DNA of 64,000 nt, taken from Botryllus schlosseri (taxonomy: Eukaryota). Location of the stretch: assembly GCA_051294905.1 (NCBI GenBank), contig CM119372.1, positions 11,534,001-11,598,000 on the forward strand, in the 5' to 3' direction. Shown in pieces: positions 222-39,800 of the stretch. A program made the translations under genes and the position numbers. The notes under the pieces were generated by a model. The model ran no database searches. It worked only from the letters and a program-made list of their open reading frames with translations, and was not told where the DNA came from. Every line of letters begins with the position of its first letter. Positions within the stretch are counted from its first letter, which is position 1.

Positions 222-225
222 ATTC

Positions 226-630
226 AGTAGACGTCGAGCGTGGAATGCCCGCTGGCGTAAATAAGGACCTGCACGAGAAAACTGGTCCTGAAAGCTCTCG
301 TGGATGCACTTGTCCGAATAACTGTAACAATTCGGCCCATAGCCTCCATGCGACAGCAACAGAAGACGTCGAGCGTGGAATGCCCGCTGGCGCAAAAGAG
401 GACCTGCACGAGAAAACTGGTCCTGAAAGCTCTCGTGGATGCACTTGTCCGAATAACTGTAACAATTCGGCCCATAGCTTGCATGCGACAGCAACAGTAG
501 ACGTCGAGCGTGGAATGCCCGCCGGCGTAAATAAGGACCTGCACGAGAAAACTGGTCCTGAATGCTCTCGTGGATGCACTTGTCCGAATAACTGTAATGA
601 TTCGGCCCATAGATGCATGACGACAGCCAC
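226..630 (+). repeat. Tandem repeat, 3 x 135 bp
   Basis: ACGTCGAGCG recurs at 231, 366 and 501; units are nearly identical with no spacers. Confidence 0.95.
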
Positions 631-3152: not shown

Positions 3153-4429
3153 CAGAGGTGGTCAGTAACGAGGTACTTCTACTTTTACGAAGTACTCAAG
3201 TAGTTTCCCTCTACTTACTCAAGTAGATCTGATTTTCGCTACTTCTACTTCTACTTCGTAATATTTTGTGATCTACTTACTTACTTTTCGCTATTTTCAG
3301 TTTGTCGAGTAGAAGTAGTTTAATACTATAATAAGGAAGATAGGCTGAGGAATTTCGGGGCTGTTTTCACGGAGTATCAACATTTAGTTTTCATAAAAAT
3401 TGAGTTAAAGCTCAGAATTTTGGTCGCGCTTCGCGCTCAGTGGATACTGAGTAACCAGTATGATTTCACGAAAGTATCAGTGAATATAATTTAGGTAGCT
3501 GGTTGGCGTTCACACCGCATTGTCGCCCTTCGCCCATATGAAATATTTCATCACAGTATATATGGCTCATCATAACGTTTGAAACTGATGTTCAGCATTT
3601 ACTTATCATATCGTAATCTAGCAGTCCATGGCGTGTCCTAATCTGGAAAAGGAGACTCTGACTTTTTTAGTTTTAGAGCTGTTTTAGCATACCACCTTTG
3701 AAACTTTCTGGACAAAAGACATGAAATACATTTTCCGCTTTTAGAAGTAGTATGTATATTTCATTTTCAATTCCCTTTATCATATACTTTTGAGTTCTAA
3801 TTAATATCAGTTCTTTTTCTGGATACCATATACATGTTGATTGTTGAAGTGTAAAAGCAAGTGTAGTAATGCCTTCAATTTCCAGAAATAAATCTACACA
3901 ATATGGCATTTTTACGATCCACCATACTTTTTATTAATGTTTACTAATCTCGCAAAGTGTTTACACCGTATGCTATACAACTTCTCCGTATTGTTCTTCG
4001 ACTAAACTACGGGCCTTATAATATGTGGGAGTGCCCCATACTATGGTATTTTCTAAAACGTGCTGCTCGAGTAAACATTGGATTAGTATCGCATTTCCAT
4101 ATCAATATTATCATTTTCATTCCATGATGCGGACGAATGCTTATGCTGTCGAAAATCGGATACATCCTGGTATGCATCAATATGAATCAAGCTCGGCCCC
4201 TGTCGCATAGCTCAATTTGCAGCTTTTGACAATCCATGCGAACGAAATACGATCGTTTTCACAACTACTTACTTACTTGAGTAGATTTAAAGTCAGGAAA
4301 TTCTACTTCTACTCCAAGTAGTTTTGGGGTGCTTATGGAAAAGTACTTCTACTCGTACTTGAGTAGATTTTTTCTTCGCTACTTCTACTTCTACTTGAGT
4401 AGCCTTCTTGACTACTTTGACCACCTCTG
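3153..4429. mobile_element. hAT non-autonomous element family B (CAGAGGTGGTCA TIR, TACT-rich subtermini)
   Basis: CAGAGGTGGTCA...TGACCACCTCTG; perfect 8-bp TSD TAACCTAT (3145-3152, 4430-4437). Confidence 0.92.
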
Positions 4430-7400
4430 TAACCTATAATCCCATTACGTGTCTTGCTAATCGGGAAAACCCAGCTTTTTGACCGTTACACCTATTTTAG
4501 CAGATCACCTTTGAAGCTTTATGGACAATAAAGACATGAAATATATTTTCCGCCTTTTAGAACTGGTATTTGTATTTCACTTTCAATTGCGAGTATCATA
4601 CTTCGAGTTCTAATTACTTTCAGTTCTTTTGTCCGCAGAATATACATGTTGAAGCATAAAAGCAAGTGTAGTAATGCCTCTATTTTCTGAAACTACAGCT
4701 ACACTAAATATAACTTTTACGATCCACAATATTTGTCATTAACGTATACTAATCGCGCAAAGTGATGAAACTGCCCGATACACACTTCTACGTATTGCTC
4801 GCCGCCTAAACTTGGGGCCTTGTAAAATGGGATAGGGCGCCATGCCATGATCTTCTCTGAAAACGGGGTCTTCTAGTAAAGAAAGTGTTAGTATCGCATT
4901 TTCATATCAATACTATAATTTGCATCCCATGATGCTGAACAATGCTTATTCTGTCGAAAATCATGCATGCATCAATACGAATGCATCAATACGAATCAAG
5001 CGTCAAAAATATCGATCTAGCCCCTAGCCATAAATCTAGCGATTTTCTAGCGATTTTTTTTCAGAAATATCGAGTAAAAATCAGTTTTTCGAAACAAACA
5101 TCATGCGCGTTTACCCATTTGACACATATCTTGCACGTCCGCACACATCGTCGATCTGTGTTCAGATTGCGTTCATGTATATGAACGTTTACTGGCATTT
5201 CTAATTTCTGGTCATGAGGGTGAAGTTAGCCATAACTTTTCCAGCCATAGGGTTCTAAAGTGTCATGTGCGGTAAACTGGTTAAGATGCTGAGTAACTGA
5301 AGCCCAACACTTTAATATCAAGCACGAACATTCTCCCTGAATGCAATGCTTTACACTAGGTTTTATACCTAAATTATAAACGCCCACACCGGACGAATAT
5401 AGGATCTACACCCTCCCCTAAAACCCGAATTCGCAAGCTTCTATAAGGGCAGCTGGATCCCAGACTGATAAATATTTTCTAACGGACTTTTGCGGGCAGA
5501 TGTCATACCTAATAAATGATACATGAGCTGGGTGGATGGGGAAGTAGTAAAATAATTGGCTGGTCAGCCGCTACAAGCAAAGTGGTCTGTAGGCTATATT
5601 GGCTATGGTTAGCGGGTTGGTCCTAGGAATATTTTCCTGATGTTGCTACCTATAGTGGCTGGCAAACCCGGTTCAAGTCGTGTTGCGTCGGGTCAAGTCG
5701 CATGTAGGGTTGGGACTTCGGGATCAAATTTGAAATCCCGGGATCGGGATTTCCCGGGATTTGCGCTTCTCAATCCCGGGATTTCCCGGGATTAACAAAG
5801 TAGTAAAATTCACATACAAGCTACACACACAACATTTATTCCTTGTAGTATTGACGCAGAAACATGCTCCCGTGAATACGTATGAAACCCAGCGACCGAA
5901 GGCCACCCGGATAATGAGCGTATAAATTCATGTAGCTCCCGCCTGTTTCGTGTAGAAATTGGTTCGTCAAACGTGATCCAAAAACGTCCAATGTTGCGTT
6001 TCATTGCCATAAGATCTTCTTCCACACACTTACGGATTTATTTGCTGTGCTCGATTACCAAGTCACGGACCCGTTTGTGACATCTTGACAAGTCATAGCC
6101 ATAAGCTTGAAGGCCCGACCAATTCACTCACTTTGGGTAATTGAATAAATGTTAACCCGTCCACATGCAGCAGTTAACTGGTTAAGAAGTTCATCGAGGC
6201 GAGGCTTATGCGATTTATTTTATAGGAATCGATCTTCCTCATTTTCATTTTTGGCTGATCTTTCTTTCACTTGTCCGATTGAATCATTCTTGGTTTAATT
6301 ACTATCATTTGTACAGACCTTAAATGCGTTATCAGTCCCTTTGTGCTAGACACTGAAGCTCTCAAAACGTCTTGACACAAGTTGCATTTGGCTTTTTATG
6401 TAGATTTATAAAACAAACAGTTTTGCCAAACATGTTATTTTCTCTTCGCATTGACATCTTCGAAATTCGCTATTATTCGACCTGTATTTCACCTCCACAG
6501 CATCGTCCTTGTGACTTTCCGATACTCAGTTACACTATAGATAACTAACCTACGGATAGATGGGCAACACGTGATTCACGGTCGAGAGCCCAGATGCCGT
6601 CAGATTTGTTGTCGCTTCATAGCATGAAGCGGCAGGTTATTGGCCAGATTGATGATTGGTGCAGATAGGATATAGGGCAATCACAACAGGTTATTTAGTG
6701 ATACAGTACACAGGCACTGGCGCGGCTATCATTGCATTAATATCAGGAGGATATTTCATGAGCAAAATAAGTCATGATATTCACTCTATTATTAATTGGT
6801 TTCAATATTGATTTCGGCTGAGATTTCCTTGAACTATTTTGGTTTGTATAATCATTAGTGCGGCCATGTTTTGATATGTCAAAATCGTAGTAGTACAAAA
6901 GTTGCCTATTTCTGAGCCAAAAACGTTTTTTGATGCTTAACTACTTCGTTAGGACAGCTATAGTTCCTACCAGAAATGAAGATCTAAGAAGTTGGCTACA
7001 ATTTTAACATTATGTGGTCAAAAAAAAAACGCCCTAATAATCAGAGATAGGTTTTAGTATGTATTGCTAAATAAAGACAATATGTTTTCATAATCCAGTC
7101 ATAATTGATATGGAATAATTATATTTCGAATTACTGACTGAGGATATCATGTGTGCGTAGGGCTTGGCACAATGATTCTCGAATCTTAACATAATATGAT
7201 TGCGGTGGAGGATACATCAACGAGTCACGACTGGAGCTATTTCACTTCAAAGTCAGCTGTCATAAAATAATCCAGTTTTTGGGCAACATAGTCTTCTTGC
7301 TTTGCATGTTGATACTGCCTAGCCATGCAAAGATTCCTCCTATGTAAAAAAGAGGTAAACCAACACTATGGCTGAAACCTTGACGTTGGTGTGTTGGCTT

Positions 7401-7688
7401 TTGTCCAATATCAGCTGGCAGTCCACTTCGCAATGGTGACATATCAAACTGACACATATATCCTCAGTATTTATTATTTTCAATATTTAATATTATATTA
7501 TGTATATTAGGCCTATTCAATCGACTTTCGCTTGGGTATTGGGGATGCATCGTAGGGCTTTGCCGATCTTTTCATTGCGTTTGATTGGGTGACATGATGG
7601 ATGTCGTACGCTAGCTGTGAAATATCCGGATTTGTCCGTCTTCTCCCCATTTGTCTCTGCAATCACAATCCCAGTCAATAATCTAACG

Positions 7689-7905
7689 CAGGGGTGGGCA
7701 AACTACGGCCCGCGGGCCGCATGCTGCCCGCAACACCGTTCTGTGCGGCCCGCGAGAGTCTAAATAAACTTTTTAAAAATATTGATACAATGCGTACTAA
7801 AAATAGAATTAATGCAGGGACTTGATCAACTTTTTCTTAGTGTATTTCACCTTGATAATTCTTAGACAGTGCATCTGAAGAGGCGCGCGCAGCTGAGCTC
7901 GACTG
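7689..7905. mobile_element. Truncated hAT-Charlie-type MITE end
   Basis: CAGGGGTGGGCAAACTACGGCCCGCGGGCC start; interrupts the left arm of the foldback; no second end. Confidence 0.7.
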
Positions 7906-8463
7906 AAAAATGCCTCTAGCACATCTTGCGTGAACGTTCCAAGGGCCAACTTGGGCATTTCTTCGATGAGACGATCGCATAGACCCACCATATTCCGTGA
8001 CGTGAAAATTAGGCCTTCCATTGTGGGTTTTGCCATCATTCGTTTTGGCTCACCACGACTTGGAAGCATATTTCTAAATTACATGATGACCCGAAAATAC
8101 CTCGAATAATAACTATGAGGAACTGACCTTCCAACTCAATAATCGATCCGCAAATTCACCCAGCCATGCAATTCTTTCATCGTCCAGGCTGCATATCGGA
8201 TAACTAATGCGGCATGTGCCGACATTGATTATTGAACCATCTGTTTTAGGTCATAAAATCAAGCCCCTTGTTATATAAGTGAAAATTCGTTACTCATACC
8301 TTTCCATCATCAGAACAAAATCAGATGTACCGGTTGCTCCCATCCCTTTCAAACAATTTCCAACTTTGTGACTCAATACACCCGTAGCCAAACTGACATT
8401 CATCTGGCATGAAAAACGGTCACATTTCAGCCCAGTGAATGATTGCAAGCGCATCATCTATAC

Positions 8464-8850
8464 CAGTGCTTCTCAACCTATTTCAGTTCGCATCCCACTT
8501 TCCATCTAAATTTCATTGCGTGGCCCACCACACACCCTTTCGCGACAAACGTTCAAACCACTACAGACAATAGAGCGAATAGCTGTGGGACTCATGCACT
8601 TTGGGACCAAAAACACATTTTCTCCATAAGGCTGTATTGAGTTTAGTCCGAAAGTGCACGAGCCCCGCAGGCCCGTCAATTACATGTTCCAGAATCATCA
8701 TCCAAAAGTGGAAGAAAACGTTGAAAATATTGACATTTTTCGACTTGGTCTTCGTGGTAGAGAACAGATCTACAAATTGGGATCTATCATCGTTTCTTAA
8801 AATGTCTTCGCGGCCCAAGTGGGCCGCAGCCAACCGGTTGAAAAGCACTG
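8464..8850. mobile_element. hAT-Charlie MITE in a P-transposase intron
   Basis: CAGTGCTTCTCAACC...GGTTGAAAAGCACTG; TSD ATCTATAC/ATCTCGAC. Confidence 0.85.
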
Positions 8851-9084
8851 ATCTCGACCAGAGGTGTCAAACATATTTTTTGCCTACTTTAGATCGTGGA
8901 TTTAAATTAACATGGGCCAATGTAAATCCGGACTGGTAAAGTGACAGGCTGCGCGACTCCACGACAAACAGTTTTTGGATATCCGTCCATAATAAACCTT
9001 GCCCTCTCCCATTCATGTTCATGTATCGAGATCCCTCTGCTTTCGATGAATAGAGAGTTCCGTGTGGCTGTTAGGATCCTAAGA

Positions 9085-9988
9085 ATATATCGGGTATGGA
9101 ATTTCGGGACTGTTTTCACATGGTAGGCCTACTAACATTTAATTTTCATAAGTCAAGTAATACCCAAAATTTTCGTTGCGCTTCGCGCGCAGTAGATACG
9201 GCGTGACAAATATGTTTAAACGAAAGTATCACAGTAAGTATACCCCCCCCCCCACCATAACATTTGATACTATCGTTTCGCAATCTAGCAGTAACATGAC
9301 GTGTCCAAATCCGGAAAAGTGAACCTTTACTTTTTTTAACGTTAGACTTAGACCTGTTCTAGCAGACCACCGTTGAAACTTTCTGGACAAACGACACATT
9401 ATATATTACCGCTTTTTTTGTATTTTTCTTCAAATTACGGGCATTATTGTCATTGTTTCAGTTATTGTGTAAACATTTTGAAAACATACGAACTGCCATA
9501 TTTTTAATTAACGTTTACTAATCGCGCAAAGTGTTGAAGCCGTATCCGACACAACTTGTCACCAATGCTCATTGACTAAACTAGGCGCCTTATAATATGG
9601 GGGAGGGCACCATGCCATGATATTCTCTAAAACGGGGTGTTCAAGTAAACAAAGAATTAGTAGCACATTCCATATCAATACTATCATTTACATCCCATGA
9701 TATGGACGACTGCCTATTCTGTCAAAAATTGACCCCGCCTGCGATGCATCAATATGAATCAAGCTCTTTACTCCTTCCTCATAGCTTTTGGCAGTCCATG
9801 CGAACGAATTACGATAGTTTTCAAAACTACTTACTTGAGTAGCTTTAAAGTCAGTCAATTCTAATTCTACTCCAAGTAGTTTTAGGTTGCTTATGGAAGA
9901 AGTACTTCTACTCATACTTGAGTAGATTTTTTCATCGCTACTTGTACTTCTACTTGAGTAGCTTTCTTGACTACTTTGACCACCTCTG
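9085..9988. mobile_element. Left-truncated family B element
   Basis: Homologous to about 3345-4429; ends TGACCACCTCTG. Confidence 0.8.
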
Positions 9989-10157
9989 GTAGTGCTCATC
10001 GTACTACAATATAATATGATCTAAAATTATCAGGTAAAGCTACCTTGAGGAGATGCTGAGGATCGGAGCATAGAAAAATTGGCCTTTCAGGAGCCTACGG
10101 ATTTGGATCAGTAAAGAGTCCATCTGATGGAATCTTCTTTGTCCCAGCAATAACCTG

Positions 10158-10477
10158 GGCCTAATTTTCACGTCACGGAATATGGTGGGTCTATGCGATC
10201 GTCTCATCGAAGAAATGCCCAAGTTGGCCCTTGGAACGTTCACGCAAGATGTGCTAGAGGCATTTTTTGGAAATTTAGTAAGATACTTAAACGTAATAAG
10301 GCGTTAGATTATTGACTGGGATTGTGATTGCAGAGACAAATGGGGAGAAGACGGACAAATCCGGATATTCCACAGCTAGCGTACGACATCCATCATGTCA
10401 CCCAATCAAAGGCAATGAAAAGATCGGCAAAGCCCTACGATGCATCCCCAATACCCAAGCGAAAGTCGATTGAATAA
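10158..10477 (+). pseudogene. Duplicated last 1.5 exons of the P transposase within the right arm
   Basis: GLIFTSRNMVGL..QDVLEAFFGNL, GT-AG intron 10278-10333, then RQMGRRRTNPDIPQ..SIE*. Confidence 0.88.
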
Positions 10478-11736
10478 TATATATAAGATAATATTAAATA
10501 TTGAAAATAATAAATACTGAGGATGTATGTGTCAGTTTGATATGTCACCATTGCGAAGTGGACTGCCAGCTAATATTGGACAAAAGCCAACACACCAACG
10601 TCAAGGTTTCAGCCATAGTGTTGGTTTACCTCTTTTTTACATAGGAGGAATCTTTGCATGGCTAGGCAGTATCAACATGCAAAGCAAGAAGACTATGTTG
10701 CCCAAAAACTGGATTATTTTATGACAGCTGACTTCGAAGTGAAATAGCTCCAGTTGTGACTCGTTGATGCATCCTCCACCGCAATCATATTATGTTCAGA
10801 TTCGAGAATCATTGTGCCAAGCCCTACGCACACATGATATCCTCAGTAATTCGAAATATAATTATTCCATATTAATTATGCATGGATTATGAAAACATAT
10901 TCTCTTTATTTAGCAATACATACTAAAACCTATCTCTGATTATTAGGGCGTTTTTTTGACCACATAATGTTAAAATTGTAGCTAACTTCTTATCTTCATT
11001 TCTGGTAGGAACTATAGCTGTCCTAACGAAGTAGTTTAGCATCGAAAAACGTTTTTGGCTCAGAAATAGGCAAGTTTTTACCACTACGATTTTGACAAAT
11101 TTTGACATGTCAAAAAATGGCCGCTCTAATGATTATACAAACCAAAATAGTTCAAGGAAATCTCAGCCGAAGTCAATATTGAAACCAATTAATAATAGAG
11201 TGAATATCATGACTTATTTTGCTCATGAAATATCCTCCTGATATTAATGCAATGATAGCCGCGCCAGTGCCTGTGTACTGTATCACTAAATAACCTGTTG
11301 TGATTGCCCTATATCCTATCTGCACCAAACATCAATCTGGCCAATAACCTGCCGCTTCATGCTATGAAGCGACAACAAATCTGACGGCATCTGGGCTCTC
11401 GACCGTGAATCACGTGTTGCCCATCTATCCGTAGGTTAGTTATCTATAGTTACACTGCTACGATTCGTAGACTACGACGGAAGTGATTGTGTAGTTCATT
11501 GTTATGACATAGTTGACTTTAATATCAAATAATTGTGAATTGTTTTAGACGATCAGCAGAGTTTGTGACAGTGCTTTATTACCAAAATAAGAGATATGGC
11601 GCTACGTAAGCCTTGGAAAATGTTGTTTACAAATCCCGGGATTTCATTGGGATCGGGATTTCCCGGGGTCCCAACGCTAGTCGCATGTCGTGTATACATT
11701 GCAGAAGTGCGTCAAGTCGCATGTCGTGTTCGAGTA

Positions 11737-16058: not shown

Positions 16059-16781
16059 CAGGGCCGGCCAACCTTTTCAGCCAAAGGGCCACATTCGATT
16101 GACGAACTGTTGCGCGGGCCACTAGCCGCGCGAAGCGCGAAAATTTTCTGAAGTTCGCAGGTCAATAATATTGTCACCTGACTATATTGCGGGCCTGTTG
16201 TATATCGCTGGGCTCAGTTTGCAAGGACTGGGCTATTGGCGTCTGGACATATCGATATCGAAAGTTTCGACCAACATGCGTCAATCATTTTGTGCCTAGG
16301 TTTCATAGTCGAAGGTCCTTCTGAGAGTGCAAACGCAAAGTCGCGTATGTTGAACGACACTCTGTCTCGTAATCGCGAATATAGTTAGATTAAATCTTAT
16401 ACATTAGGCGTTCTTTCATTTTCACAAAGGTGCAACAATATTAAAAGCAAGAAATCGAGTGACAACATGTTGCGCGAAGCGTGTAGAAAATTTTTACTTT
16501 TGATAAATCTATCGCAAATTATTCTGATTTATTGTAGTGTACGAAGATCTACCAATATGTGACTGGCTCATGGATCAGCCAATGCTTCGGAACTGATATT
16601 TTAGTCATCACATCTCAAGTGTTGCGGCCAGACTAATCAAATTTTTGATTGGCCTCACAAGTTCACAATCTGTGCAATCCATTTTTGATAACATTAGAAA
16701 TTTCGGAAATTACCTCGCGGGCCACTCAAAACCCTCTCGCGGGCCACATGTGGCCCGCGGGCCACGGGTTGGCCGGCCCTG
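16059..16781. mobile_element. hAT-Charlie MITE (CAGGGCCGGCCAACC TIR)
   Basis: Perfect TSD ATTTAGGG; inverted sibling at 38676-39581. Confidence 0.93.
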
Positions 16782-25178: not shown

Positions 25179-25215
25179 TATAGATAACTAACCTACGGTA
25201 GGTTAGTTATATAAA
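25179..25215. mobile_element. 37-bp remnant of two P-element tips (probable excision footprint)
   Basis: TATAGATAACTAACCTAC-G-GTAGGTTAGTTATATAAA matches the first and last 18 bp of 6536-11448 (two mismatches on the right); flanks CTGAAAT/GTGAAAT. Confidence 0.85.
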
Positions 25216-33800: not shown

Positions 33801-36800
33801 CCCACAGTTTGAGAACCGCTGGCCTAGACCGTTCAGGGGTAAGCTTAAATTCCCTTGCAAGTCCTCGTCAAAATTGTTGGCAAAGCGACGGAATATTTTG
33901 ATTTTACGGGATTATTATACCGTTTGATTGCCCCAGTTGATAGATTTGCCGACGTTGAAAACGTCAATTTGTGCTTCAGCATAATAGTGACCCGAGTCGT
34001 CGCTGTATAGGCTATCGTGTACACTGTACAGTAATATAGGCCATCACTTCAATGTAGGGTTGAAATTACCATAATGACGTCTCGTGACGTCATGAGGTTC
34101 ACGTTCACGTTCACACAGAACCTCTGAGAGGTTCACACCATCACTAGTACCCAGTATTAGTGATCTTCGGAGCCCAGTAACAACATTGCACCACTGCATC
34201 CAAATATAAAAAAATCGAGTTACTGTGGGGAGATAAAGGCTCATGATTTTGACCTAGCCCGATTTTGGACCAACACGTTGCTGAGGTAAAAGTCAGTTCA
34301 AGCGTGAAAAGCGCGACATTTAACAAAAACTTTCGGGAATCACTATAATCTTTCACGATCTTGGTTTTCTGTTGCACTTCTTGTCTCAGCATCACCTCGA
34401 TGTAGCGAGTGTTGGGAAGTTTGAATTCAGGAAATTTTAACCAATATTCAGATTTCGGAGAAATTCTGATATTTCTCCAAAAACGTTCACATGGTAGGAC
34501 CTACACAGTACACATTCGGCTATACGGCATTTCATTCTCAATATCAAGTTGTTAGTCGTGTTTCAGCACAAGAGGATTTTTTAACGGTAAGACCCACAGG
34601 AATAGACTACTTCAATCTTCCATTGCGATCCCATCATGTTTCTTGACAAAACGATCGATCAGACCGCTTATGATTTCGTCTTGTTCGTTACATGTCTTTA
34701 TAGATTTATATATACATTCTCACAGTAATGAGAGAATTCGATATGGTAAATCAATAGTATATTGACCTATTTTGAAGTCAGCATGCTCAGCTATGTATCA
34801 TTCAATACATTAGTTGTTGCTGCTAAAACTGCTACGGACTCCAAAATGTCACAAAACGAGAGGAATTCTGACACAAGGATAAAGTTACCTTTCTCGTATT
34901 CGGTGATCCAAAACCTGCGTCTAAAAGTTGTAATAAAATCCACTTAGATAGGTGTGTAATCGTAACCAATGTTTCAAACTGCGTTTATTCGCAATTTCAT
35001 GTTTCATTGCATGTGAATAAAGATACAGCTGAATACTCGATGCAAGAAACGACCACACTTCAAATATGAGGCTATAGAAATCACACAATCATCGGTAGTT
35101 TACGGCATCAAATGACTACATTACATATATTTTATAAATTTTGAACAACACAGCGTAGGCCTTCATAGGTCCGCGTATAATCACTAGTAAGTCATGCTAT
35201 CAGGCCAGGATCTTCTGGAAATGAGAATATGGTAGAGGTAAAATTGAGTTGGCCATATTGTAATGATAACCTTTATAGCCGCCAGGTCTCTTATTTATTC
35301 CAGTAGTCAGATGTACTCGCAATTTTATGCAACATCACATTATCAACAAATCTATGCGAATATTACCGGAAATTCCCTCTTCGTGGCCACATTTCGCAAT
35401 TGGCACATCCGAAGATCCAGTAAGTCCGTGTTCGGCGCCTGATAGCTTGTCCGTCATACTTATGGCTGTGAATAAAAAATATGACGGGCTATTGCAAAGT
35501 ACACTAACCGGTGATTTAATTTTAAAGTAGGTGGCAGATGGCCAATAAACACGTCATGCTTCATTCCTACCTTCTCCCAGTCTCAGCACCTTCAATTCTT
35601 GCAACACTTTATAATCATGGTGAACTTCACCTGTGAAGATGCAGCAAGTGCCCTCGTGATACATTGATTAACAATGGTTGCAATAGCCTACGAGTTACTT
35701 TCCAAATCAACACTTAATTGTCGAAAATTAACATGCTGTGACAATTACATTATGCCTGCGACATGATCAGGGCATGGTAGGGTATGGTATGGAACGACAA
35801 TTTTCCATGCTCCATACTTGCCTTACTCTCTCAATACCATATAATTGCAATTTTCCATACCATACCAACATTGTTCCATACCATACTTGATACATATTCC
35901 ATACTTTCAAATACTTCAATATCATAAGTATAGTACCTTCTCTAGCACCTATATTATTGATATTTCGGATGTCATTTTTGCTTAAACTAGCCATGATGCG
36001 AATCTAATTCCTGGTGATAGTTTTACAGAGTCTGTTTTGGTGAGGTGCCGTGTACGTCTACTCTGCAGATTCCGCGAGCAAAATGAGATAGTCAGCAGAT
36101 TGCTATATTGGACAGTCCATAAAAGGGACGGGTAACATACGGCCCGCGACGAGATTTTGTCCGGCTCGCGGACAGTTTCCCGTCTTGCTTGATAATGTGG
36201 CCCGCGGTCCCAGTCTGCCGAGATTCCCCACTATTTGCCTAAACGTCCAATTTTAGTGACTGTATTATATAGGTGTGCGCACTGTGCAGCGTGCGAGAGT
36301 GGAGCTTACGCGTAAGTTCGTCGAAGCGAGAAGACTTTCATTATCGGCATTTACGATGTACTCAACCCCAATGAATTGAAATCTTGGTAAATTTTGGGTA
36401 CTGGGCTTATCAAACGCTTTAAAATCCTAATTAAGGATTGCACCGTGGTTTAGTTGATCAAAGAGAAGCAGACACGGCGGCGCTTGTATGACAATGCTGT
36501 TCTCAAATCCACATTGTATTGTCATTATCGGCGAGAAATGGCTCTGAAGTGACATATTTCTGTCGATAAGATACATTCATTAAATGACGCGAAACAATAA
36601 CTTCATATTGTTAATTTATTCGCTAAAAGCTTTTCGACAGACCCTCATCAGTAGCGAAACGTCAGTGATAGGGTGAATCAAATTCGAAAATGTAAGAACT
36701 ATTTTGTCTGTATGACGTAATAATAACAAAAACAAACAACTAGTAGACGGACTAGTTGTTTGTTTTTTGTTATTATTACGTCATACAGACAAAATAGTTC

Positions 36801-39800
36801 TTACATTTTCGAATTTGATTCACCCTATCACTGACGTTTCGCTACTGATGAGGGTCAGTCGAAAAGCTTTCAGCGAATAAATTAACAATATGAAGTTATT
36901 GTTTCGCGTTATTCTGAAGTTCTGTACCACAAATCACTTAATCATTAAATACGATTTATTCCTTGTATATATGCGCGAATAATGTATCCATTCAGCAATC
37001 CGGCCCGCCAAGTACTTAATTTTTCTATATCCGGCACTCTGACCGGAGAAGTTGCCCGCCCCTGCTCCATAAGAATATCATCACATTTCCGGTACATTGG
37101 CATGAGGCGCATGCAAGTTTGAAGTAAATACTCGCAAAATAATTTATAACATAGGCGCACCCATAAAATGTCCCAGCTACAGGCGATCAATACTGCAGCG
37201 ATCTGCGTGATTATAAGTACAGTATTTGGTTGAGGTTAGCGTGGCGAGAATTTCAAACTATATCTACCCCACTCCCTGATCTATAATCCTGATGTGAGAT
37301 CGTTTGAAATATGACCAATAAGATATCTCGCTATGTAAATAGTATAAATGTGCGGACAATATTTCAGAAGAAATGTAATTATCAATCACATTGAGCAATT
37401 AGTACGTTGCATCATGATTGCTTGTAAGCGGTCGTCACTCAAGGAATGAGGTAATTGGAGTAGCCCACATTACCAATTATTGCGTCACACGATAGACTTT
37501 GCTCGGAGACGTCGTGTCTAGACTCAATAGAATATCTGATCAACATTACTGTTGTCATGATTACGTCACAAAATCATGTCATTCCAAGTGCCCCTAAAAC
37601 TGTTGCACAAACGTGTATTTGTTCCTACACAGCATTAAATAGTTCGCGTTCACAGTTCACACATAACAAAAGCGATCGTATTCCGTGAACAGCGATCAAC
37701 GTACGGTTCATGAAGCTTGCACAGATCACAATAAAATGTATAAAACACCTAAGTATGGAAGTATTGAAATGTCGTTCCATACCATAGATTAAAATCTCCC
37801 GTTCCATACCATACTTGCATTGCTCCATATTCCATACCAAAATATCGATCCACACCATACCATACTTCCATACCATACCATACCATGCCCTGGACATGAT
37901 CCATGGATCGCAATGACAAGCTCACTAAATTTAATTAACTGACCTTCCGTCGGCGACAATTGAGATTTTCCTTCGGATTTTCGTGAGAAGCTGGCCATTC
38001 CAAACTGAAAAAGTCGCGTTCGTTAGATAGATTGCGAACTACCGGTATATCGCTCAAGCATTCCCATTAGATCTCTTCGGTAGATCACGAGAACATTACA
38101 GCAGACCACGCAGTCAGGTTAATCATAGGCTCTTAGAGGGCAAATAGGCGAAACGACGATATCGACATTAATAATGGCCAAGATTAGGGCGAAGTACATC
38201 CCAAACTAACAGCACAAATGTGTGATAATTCGAAATGAGCTACGTGCTGACCTTCCAAGTCAGCAGATGCGAAAGTGTCGACTAATCGAATAATTTAAAG
38301 GTGGGACGGGAATGTTGACCTTTTCAGTCGGCAGGGTTGTAGGTCACGGTGACATCTGCTTCCAAAAGGTAGTTAGCAATACGCCAATATTGAGCACCTC
38401 TGAACAATTATTGCCGAAGGAGCATGATGAGCGAGTAAAATGTAATTTAAACGAAATGAAGAATCAGATGAAACAATGCTAGCGGTAGCCTACTCTATAG
38501 TACAGTGGTCGGGAACCTTTTGTCCGAAGAGCCATATTGACCCCATATTTTCCATCTTAACTTCCAAAGAGCCATACGTTTTAATCAATACGTCACAATA
38601 TAAAAATTGTGACGTCATCGTAGCGCAAATTCGTCGATTTTCGTCAGTTATACGAGATCGTAGGTTCGTCTTGACCAGGGCCGGCCAACCCGTGGCCCGC
38701 GAGAAGGTTTTGAGTGGCCCGCGAGATAATTTCCGAAATTTCTAATGTTATCAAAAATGGATTGCACAGATTATGAACTTGTGAGGCCAACCGAAATTTG
38801 GTTTAGTCTGGCCGCAACACTTGATATGTTATGACTAAAATATCAGTTCCGACGCATTGGCAGATCCATGAGTCAGTCACATATTGATAGATCTTCGTAT
38901 ACTACAATAAACAGAATGGTGGGCGATAGATTTATCAAAAGTAAACATTTTCTACACGCTTCGCGCAACATGTTGTCACTCGATTTCTTGATTTTAATAT
39001 TGTTGCCCCTTTGTGAAAATCTAAGAACTCCTAATGTATCAGATTGAATCTAAATATAATCGCGATTACGAGACAGAGTGTCGTTTAACATATGCGGCTT
39101 TGCGTTTGCACTCGCAGAAAGACTGTCGACTATGAAACCTAGGCACAAAATGATTGACGCATGTTGGTCGAAACTTTTGATATCGAAATGTCCAGACGCC
39201 GATAGCCCAGTCCTTGCAAACTGAGCCCAGCGATATACAGCAGGCCCGCAATCAATGTTCCCTCTAATTTTTGCCGAGTCTGCGCACACTCACCAATACA
39301 CTGCGCAGACCCTTGGACAACAGTGCGTAACGGTGGAAAAAAAGATCATCACTTCGGATTTTTTGTGCGCAACTTCGATTTTCTGTGCGCAGAGACTGTG
39401 CCAGCACTGCGCATTTGCGCACGTGCGCAGCTTAGAGGGAACATTGCCCAAAATATAGTCAGGTGAAAATATTATTGACCTGTGAACTAGGAAAAATATT
39501 CGCGCCTCGCGCGGCTAGTGGCCCGCGCAACAGTTCGACAATCGAATGTGGCCCTTTGGCTGAAAAGGTTGGCCAGCCCTGGTCTTGACGATATGACCTT
39601 ACCTGTCTACTAGATTTTGAACATTTTTACTACGAAAATCACGCAACTTACCTATTTATTGTTCGAAAATATAGCATGAAAGGGGAGGTAAGGCATTGGT
39701 GAGGCACAGCCGGGATTAGCATAGCGCAATTCATCGTAAATATCACAGAATTTATAATATTGATAACACTGGTTTTCACATAGTTTTTGGCATGCAAAGT

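What the first reader, a model, noticed from the sequence alone, without database searches (positions are those of the whole stretch)
6536..11448. Galileo-like foldback built from two inverted 3' ends of an intron-rich P transposon
Seen: the arms are not ordinary TIRs, because each carries the transposase's last exon (RQMGRRRTNPD..stop) and 3' region reading outward. The minus-strand transposase is cut at about 10158 (junction at a GGCC) and its 5' half is replaced by an inverted copy of the last ~1.29 kb. The unit has a perfect 7-bp TSD, GTTACAC. Known: Drosophila Galileo is a P-superfamily foldback with long TIRs and 7-bp TSDs, and it generates inversions. Inference: this captures long-TIR foldback formation by template switching or gap repair in a non-insect P family with at least 5 introns.
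Basis: partly seen in the sequence, partly recalled or inferred. Interest (0 to 1): 0.8.

Follow-up and report, generated by a model that had tools for sequence, protein, structure and literature searches.

The report
P transposon with two tail ends
A dead P-type jumping gene has lost its front half and carries a mirror-image copy of its own tail instead, and this two-tailed form likely spread to several places in the genome using the enzyme of intact relatives, an architecture described in fruit-fly Galileo elements and seen here in a different, intron-rich P family.

Summary
A 4,913-bp element (6536-11448) sits between 7-bp duplications (GTTACAC); empty-site contigs skip exactly 4,920 bp. 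Its arms (1,480 and 1,291 bp; 24 substitutions, 6 indels) each hold the last two exons and 3' region of a P-superfamily transposase with five introns; the remnant is 45% identical to a Ciona P transposase. The junction is not an assembly artefact: contigs cross it in 3 of 4 public runs laid, and all 4 also hold a sister form that continues the reading frame natively. Corrections: GGCC is not a shared microhomology (0-1 base), and this is not Galileo (introns, no repetitive arms). Nor is it a one-off event caught in place: contig depths suggest several copies that outnumber the native form, so it is likely a small mobile subfamily; a second insertion site was not seen. Recruitment of transposase sequence into long inverted ends is already published for Drosophila willistoni Galileo. 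The scan noted a similar half-transposase foldback elsewhere in this genome (e1-7786373) but not this family. Verdict: new variant of a known kind, moderate interest.

The parts
6529..6535 (+). Left 7-bp target-site duplication GTTACAC, inside a partly palindromic target (CA-GT...AC-TG)
   Evidence: empty-site joints skip 4,920 = 4,913 + 7 in X1, X5, X6, X7
6536..8015 (-). Left arm: the element's own 3' end (terminus, 3' region, last exon, part of the QDVLE exon)
6859..7136 (.). Stretch of both arms overlapping a higher-copy repeat; carries 17 of the 30 arm-to-arm differences
   Evidence: 17 in 278 bp against 13 in 986 bp, Fisher p 3e-5; depth bins
7513..7656 (-). Last coding exon (RQMGRRRTNPD...stop), left-arm copy
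   Evidence: five named ascidian relatives end about 45 residues after the same NP motif
7690..7905 (.). 216-bp insert in the left arm (hAT-MITE-like end, label recalled) that removed 33 bp including the exon end and splice donor; shared by copies in all 4 runs
   Evidence: loose ends at 10266-10267
7906..8073 (-). Exon with the catalytic Glu (QDVLEAFF)
   Evidence: E 1.5e-15
8128..8240 (-). Exon (WF...DDERIAWL), with a frameshift; introns 8127-8074 (54 nt) and 8299-8241 (59 nt) flank it
8300..8403 (-). Exon MNVSLA... (GTP-binding insertion domain)
   Evidence: PF21788, E 0.056, below cut-off; E 2.5e-7
8404..8887 (-). Intron holding a MITE of about 8465-8850
8888..9078 (-). Exon ATRN...HVNLNPRSK, with a frameshift near 9055; acceptor position uncertain (9078 or about 9067)
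9079..10043 (-). Intron filled with high-copy repeats (other copies at window 3349-5001)
10044..10156 (-). Truncated exon (…SDPQHLLK), cut about nine codons after the position of the second catalytic Asp; holds a stop at 10095-10097
10157..10157 (.). Inversion junction: one base that matches neither parent strand seen in contigs
   Evidence: tables 7 and 8
10158..11448 (+). Right arm: inverted copy of the last 1,291 bp; QDVLE exon part 10158-10277, intron 10278-10333 (56 nt), last exon 10334-10477
11449..11455 (+). Right 7-bp target-site duplication GTTACAC
25179..25215 (.). 18+1+18-bp excision footprint with this family's terminus (0 and 2 mismatches) between 7-bp flanks that match at 6 of 7
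   Evidence: lead from e1-9355334

Best explanation
This is a non-coding derivative of an intron-rich P-superfamily transposon in which the 5' half is replaced by an inverted copy of the last 1.29 kb, and which likely moved on as a small subfamily with two identical 3' ends, likely cut and pasted by the transposase of a sister subfamily that keeps the native 5' half. Shown: structure, TSD, P-type exons, junction in independent runs, native continuation in a sister form about 8% diverged. Inferred: several copies, and independent transposition. Inferred origin: after excision a P-type enzyme leaves about 17-18 bases of terminal repeat on both broken flanks; since both carry the same sequence, the 5'-side flank can prime on the 3' end of a template. 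Both flanks would then copy the 3' end inward (3.6 kb and 1.29 kb), could not anneal, and would be joined by end-joining with little or no microhomology, as seen. The insert in the left arm came after the duplication and before the spread.
For: Arms, TSD and exons: (45% identity over 296 columns to Ciona P0030, E 5e-72; groups with the ascidian proteins on a 100/100 split of an 11-row tree). Junction crossed collinearly by contigs in X1, X5, X6; native in-frame continuation in 4 of 4 runs, 1,100 nt long in X7. X6 bookkeeping: over 10130-10149 the depth 741.8 is exactly two junction contigs (383.2 + 92.7) plus the native one (265.9); window-type inner arm 1035.2, about twice the junction total of 476; right-arm intron form 470.4; contigs of single diverged repeat copies in that run lie at 53-61 and 100-125, which gives roughly 4-9 junction copies. 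One X6 junction copy has its own extra insertion at 10127, so junction copies differ from each other. Native-type depth is about equal on the 5' exon and in the arm region (X6 266, 359, 319, 326; X5 5.1 and 5.9), so the native form holds the inner arm once. 5 of 7 differences between the two subfamilies in the QDVLE exon are silent third positions. Footprints keeping 16-21 bp of each end (5 joints; window 25179-25215) fit the 17-nt staggered cut of P (PMC7776569).
Against: No second insertion site with a different TSD was seen; no genome was available. Contig depth is a rough measure and the single-copy level was read from other repeat contigs, not from a single-copy gene. Only one contig (X5 record 14: 61 and 31 letters, counting the junction base) reaches the tool's 31-letter bridging rule; X6 pieces pass the junction by 25 letters, X1 pieces by 17-18. 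In X5 the right-arm intron form (5.5) is well below the junction depth (13.1), which the bookkeeping does not explain. X7 holds both intron forms but shows no junction contig. The native partner is a proxy 8% diverged, so the true parental bases at the junction are unknown. If the element is mobile, the TSD cannot tell gap repair from fusion of two neighbouring copies. Drosophila P is recalled to need one 5' and one 3' end (not found in searches).
Confidence: 0.65

Rival explanations
1. The foldback formed once and never transposed again; extra copies are passengers, duplicated with the surrounding high-copy repeat or a larger segment, or the depth excess reflects pooling or library bias.
For: The flanks are themselves a high-copy repeat (depth 9,000-17,600 in X6); no second TSD seen; in X5 the junction depth (13.1) fits as few as 2-3 haploid copies.
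Against: Empty sites of the flanking repeat are abundant (joint depth 3,156 in X6); at six left-flank positions no X6 or X5 contig carries the window's letter (weak, since such changes could be later); apparent copy number differs between runs; junction copies carry different secondary insertions.
Confidence: 0.22
2. The element arose by fusion of two neighbouring copies in opposite orientation (local hop or nested insertion, then a deletion), and the composite was then mobilised by its two outer 3' ends; no mis-primed gap repair is needed. This differs from the best reading only in the origin.
For: P elements hop locally (PMC7776569); the junction has 0-1 base of microhomology, which fits a deletion joined by end-joining as well; arm differences are unevenly spread.
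Against: In X5 one 784-bp contig at about twice the middle depth appears to stand for both arms, so the arms were identical at founding, which one template explains most simply; the window's arm differences look private to this copy.
Confidence: 0.25
3. The family natively has long, Galileo-like terminal repeats, and this is a simple internal deletion derivative.
For: The native 5' terminus was not seen, so its repeat length is unknown; D. willistoni Galileo has 69 bp of ORF inside its standard TIR.
Against: Native-type sequence of the inner arm (10158-10653) is at about the depth of the native 5' exon, not twice it; contigs that leave the terminus after 34 or 51 bp hint at short native repeats.
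Confidence: 0.07
4. The inversion is an assembly or library chimera.
For: Foldback chimeras are a known artefact (recalled); no long read was seen; the window base at 10126 is shown by none of the 4 runs.
Against: Arms differ by 24 substitutions, 6 indels and a 216-bp insert; unique TSD; junction in contigs of three studies, two if X1 is left out as a possible source.
Confidence: 0.01
5. Whatever its origin, the foldback acts as a Mu-killer-like source of hairpin RNA that silences the family in trans.
For: A transcript through the element would fold 1.29-kb arms holding about 260 bp of coding sequence (sequence).
Against: No test was possible; the native subfamily is about 8% diverged, and the promoter-bearing 5' end is lost, so transcription would need an outside promoter.
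Confidence: 0.1

Closest known systems
Galileo copies with extended (recruited) TIRs: D. willistoni copy 147 and D. mojavensis '2RT' copies (PMC4168063 section 6 and passages; PMC3573991 parts 1-4 of 7)
   Same: P superfamily, 7-bp TSD, non-autonomous copy whose long inverted arms took in internal sequence; copy 147 has 1.6-kb TIRs with at least 545 bp of transposase, and related copies have different TSDs.
   Different: Galileo is intronless and already has 0.3-1.2-kb, often internally repetitive TIRs; here the parent has at least five introns, no tandem arrays in the arms, and apparently carries the inner arm once. [quoted passage not shown]
Drosophila melanogaster P element (PDB 6P5A; PMC7776569 sections 6, 7 and passages)
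   Same: Homologous catalytic core with GTP-binding insertion (relative P0023 hits 6P5A at E 4.5e-19); spliced gene; footprints fitting a long staggered cut.
   Different: 8-bp TSD, 31-bp TIRs, unlike 5' and 3' ends (9 and 21 bp spacing); transposase has a C-terminal domain that this family's ORF lacks.
Ascidian P-like transposases (Ciona intestinalis P0023, P0028-P0030; Phallusia P0031)
   Same: Nearest named relatives, 37-45% identical; same short C-terminus.
   Different: Only their proteins were seen; their ends and TSDs were not. Kimbacher et al. 2009 on Ciona P elements was seen only as a reference-list entry.
Mu killer of maize (recalled, nothing read)
   Same: Inverted duplication of part of a transposon.
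   Different: Mu killer duplicates the 5' end, is immobile and has a shown silencing role; none of that is shown here.

Membership tests
P superfamily | RNase H-type DDE core with GTP-binding insertion | tested here: met
   Remnant 45% identical to P0030; relatives pass Pfam cut-offs for PF21787/21788/21789 and hit 6P5A. Direct Pfam on 12 window ORFs gave only a sub-threshold PF21788 hit.
P superfamily | 7-8-bp target-site duplication | tested here: met
   7 bp, confirmed by empty-site joints
P superfamily | Long staggered cut leaving about 17 nt of terminal repeat | tested here: met
   Footprints keep 16-21 bp per end; indirect evidence only
P superfamily | N-terminal THAP domain | not testable with these tools
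   5' half is absent; only 30 letters of the native continuation were shown
P superfamily | Termini starting 5'-CA (recalled rule of thumb) | tested here: not met
   Ends start TATAGA; the footprint at 25179 starts the same way
Galileo | Intronless transposase ORF | tested here: not met
   Five GT..AG introns; Galileo intronless per PMC3698922 and PMC3688188
Galileo | Long TIRs in near-complete copies | tested here: inconclusive
   Inner arm is single in native copies by depth; the outer 800 bp and the native 5' terminus were not resolved
Galileo | Internal tandem repeats in the TIRs | tested here: not met
   Only two-to-three-copy AT-rich 10-16-mers
Galileo | 7-bp TSD with consensus GTANTAC | tested here: inconclusive
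   Length met; GTTACAC matches 4 of 6 specified positions (consensus); one site only
Galileo | Transposase falls in the Galileo clade | not tested
   No Galileo protein was among the 11 rows of the tree
Recruited-TIR (2RT-type) non-autonomous foldback | Internal sequence of one end repeated in inverted form at the other end, between matching TSDs | tested here: met
Recruited-TIR (2RT-type) non-autonomous foldback | Independent insertions with different TSDs | not testable with these tools
   No genome held; only depth evidence
Two-gene P elements (earlier scan notes) | Transposase ends early; tail domain on a convergent second gene | tested here: inconclusive
   Early end met. Inward-reading arm ORFs gave no hit in Pfam (0 of 10), homolog search (46), PDB (61) or Atlas (43, 62); motif likeness by eye only

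The most novel reading that the evidence does not exclude
A symmetric P element with two 3' ends transposes on its own ends and has overtaken its native parent in copy number. This P transposase would then not need the 5'/3' end asymmetry of Drosophila P, and a short-TIR, intron-rich P family would have produced a Galileo-style long-TIR lineage in one step, independently of Galileo.
Probability: 0.5. Interest if true: 0.55.

Novelty: new variant of a known kind. Interest (0 to 1): 0.42.

Why it matters
It extends to a second branch of the P superfamily a process that the Galileo literature called unique to Galileo, with both parent-like and derived forms present in one species. If the two-tailed form is mobile, it is a natural test of whether P transposases need two unlike ends, and a model for how long-TIR foldback elements, which promote inversions, arise from ordinary short-TIR transposons.

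Tried and rejected
Whole-genome search: no genome is held. Terminal sequence in viral and metagenome contigs: 0 matches; profile scan of metagenome contigs: 42 pattern hits, none confirmed. Run search: no RNA holder listed, so expression and hairpin RNA were not examined. GGCC microhomology: rejected, the native partner has other letters there; a 5-base word shared by both parents lies 5 bases further on and only in the X1/X5 variant. Transib-like end (CACTATAG on the left) rejected: the right side does not match and the 7-bp TSD is confirmed. A further exon after the stop (FYIGG frame, 7263-7463): no Pfam hit, no profile hit, and relatives end at the same place, so not counted. Convergent second gene in the arms: unresolved. 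Literature searches for two-like-end P elements or this ascidian case found nothing relevant; most subscription papers and Repbase are outside the library. Earlier-finding look-ups by sequence found no other note on this family. Absence of a junction contig in X7 is not read as absence, since its depth over the element is very uneven.
Full report
Observation. The element spans 6536-11448 (4,913 bp) between two copies of GTTACAC. The right arm is 10158-11448; the left arm is 6536-8015 and carries a 216-bp insert (7690-7905) in place of 33 bp. Outside the insert the arms differ by 24 substitutions and 6 indels over about 1,260 columns, and the inner 110 bp are identical. Differences are uneven: 17 events in 6859-7136 against 13 in the other 986 bp. 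The TSD is real: contigs of all four runs laid join the flanks while skipping 4,920 bp, element plus one duplication. These empty sites come from other copies of the flank, which is itself a high-copy repeat, so they do not show whether this insertion is polymorphic.

The gene. Pfam on 12 window ORFs gave only a sub-threshold GTP-binding-domain hit. A search with the QDVLE exon found 28 proteins; two long ones pass the Pfam cut-offs for P-type RNase H and GTP-binding domains, are named as Ciona intestinalis proteins, and one hits the Drosophila P transposase structure at E 4.5e-19. A profile from 11 such proteins hit 8 of 2,905 ORF pieces in the window, all inside the element. Read through with X at joins and stops, the remnant is 45% identical over 296 columns to Ciona P0030 and sits with the ascidian proteins on a 100/100 split of an 11-row tree that held no Galileo, 1360, Drosophila P or THAP9 sequence. 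Six exons and five GT..AG introns (965, 484, 59, 54 and 56 nt) are seen; two acceptor positions are uncertain because phases do not match, and there are a stop and at least two frameshifts. An ascidian-like host is an inference from these relatives and the short introns.

The junction. Of 24 runs listed I laid four, from four studies. On 10050-10320 (32 of 211 pieces shown) contigs cross the junction collinearly in X5 (10096-10187), X6 (10078-10181 and 10127-10181) and X1 (to 10173 and 10174); only the X5 piece reaches the tool's 31-letter rule, and none is shown in X7. In all four runs other contigs leave the window at 10156 and continue the reading frame (GLSVNRS-L/F-FK, matching the stretch just after the second catalytic Asp of the relatives); in X7 this continuation is 1,100 nt long. 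So the THAP/HTH region and the first two catalytic residues are what was lost (inferred from the alignment). The native partner does not carry GGCC at the break; one base (10157) matches neither side. Because the native form seen is about 8% diverged (6 differences in 79 bp, 10 in 119 bp), microhomology is 0-1 base as far as can be told. Five of the seven listed differences in the QDVLE exon are silent third positions, as expected for two once-active subfamilies.

Copy number. The tool warns that summed depth is no copy number, so I used single contigs. In X6 the depth over 10130-10149 (741.8) is exactly two junction contigs (383.2, 92.7) plus one native (265.9). The window-type inner arm has 1035.2, about twice 476; the right-arm intron form has 470.4; native-type pieces run at 266-359 on both sides, so native copies hold the inner arm once. 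Contigs of single diverged repeat copies in X6 lie at 53-61 and 100-125, giving roughly 4-9 junction copies; this baseline is indirect. One junction copy has a further insertion at 10127. In X5 the junction has 13.1 against 5.1 native, arms 20-28 against about 10 in the middle; in X1 native-type letters are 3% or less of summed depth. The left-arm insert is in all four runs. Against: in X5 the right-arm intron form is only 5.5; X7 shows no junction; no second TSD was seen.

Mechanism. Shown: the structure, the native alternative, and footprints that keep 16-21 bp of each end (five joints, lengths; and 25179-25215 in this window, a lead from e1-9355334). These fit the 17-nt staggered cut of P (PMC7776569 section 7). 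Inferred: such breaks leave the same terminal sequence on both flanks, so one flank can prime on the wrong end of a template; both sides copy the 3' end inward and are joined by end-joining. Fusion of two neighbouring inverted copies gives the same product and cannot be excluded. Inferred: later spread in trans. If the form is mobile, this copy's TSD dates from a later jump, so the site does not capture the formation event.

Comparison. TIR extension by recruiting internal sequence is described for D. mojavensis Galileo (PMC3573991, parts 1-4 of 7 read). D. willistoni copy 147 has 1.6-kb TIRs holding at least 545 bp of transposase, with a related copy at a different TSD, and the authors call ORF recruitment so far unique to Galileo (PMC4168063, section 6 and passages). 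Galileo is intronless (passages of PMC3698922 and PMC3688188) and often has tandem repeats in its arms; this element has introns and no such arrays. It works like a recruited-TIR Galileo copy but is not filed as Galileo. Drosophila P has unlike ends (PMC7776569 section 6); that it needs one of each is recalled, and my searches did not find it; passages of PMC10983969 added only the staggered cut. No paper on this ascidian-type case turned up, but Repbase and most subscription papers were not searchable, and I did not open the supplements of the Galileo papers, whose copy tables may hold more such cases.

Open point. Earlier notes of this scan describe P elements in this genome whose tail domain lies on a convergent second gene. 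This family also ends early, and the arms have tail-like motifs by eye when read inward (6656-6808, 7195-7344), but five searches gave no support. If such a remnant exists, the foldback holds it twice.

Verdict. Real, P-type, two 3' ends, likely a small mobile subfamily; a new variant of a known kind. Interest 0.42.

Noticed in passing
window 25179-25215: 18+1+18-bp footprint with this family's terminus and near-matching 7-bp flanks; already noted as e1-9355334.
   Followed up: yes
termini (6442-6655; joints 6586 to 11360): Very high depth on the first 50-90 bp and a joint giving a roughly 160-bp element suggest a high-copy MITE family with related ends; contigs leaving after 34 bp may be the native 5' end.
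   Followed up: no
window 6656-6808 and 7195-7344 (+), mirrored in the right arm: Possible decayed convergent tail-domain gene read inward; no search supported it.
   Followed up: partly
window 7137-7147 and 7458-7468: 11-bp perfect inverted repeat (longer with mismatches) bounding about 330 bp inside each arm; nested insert or subterminal repeat.
   Followed up: no
window 7516-7570 and 10420-10474: Both arms' last exon is about 12 residues shorter than in relatives, lacking the KGGNTT-like motif.
   Followed up: no
window 5800-6528 and 11456-11650: The element sits inside an unidentified high-copy repeat whose empty form is common.
   Followed up: partly
window 16059-16757 and 38682-39581: About 700 bp of 91-92% inverted repeat 22 kb apart.
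   Followed up: no
window 36583-36913: Hairpin with 150-bp arms, 98% complementary, 31-bp loop.
   Followed up: no
window 225-629: Tandem array of 135-bp units in a G+C-richer start of the window.
   Followed up: no
position 10290: Native-type copies continue the last intron with other sequence, so it is longer or holds an insertion there.
   Followed up: no
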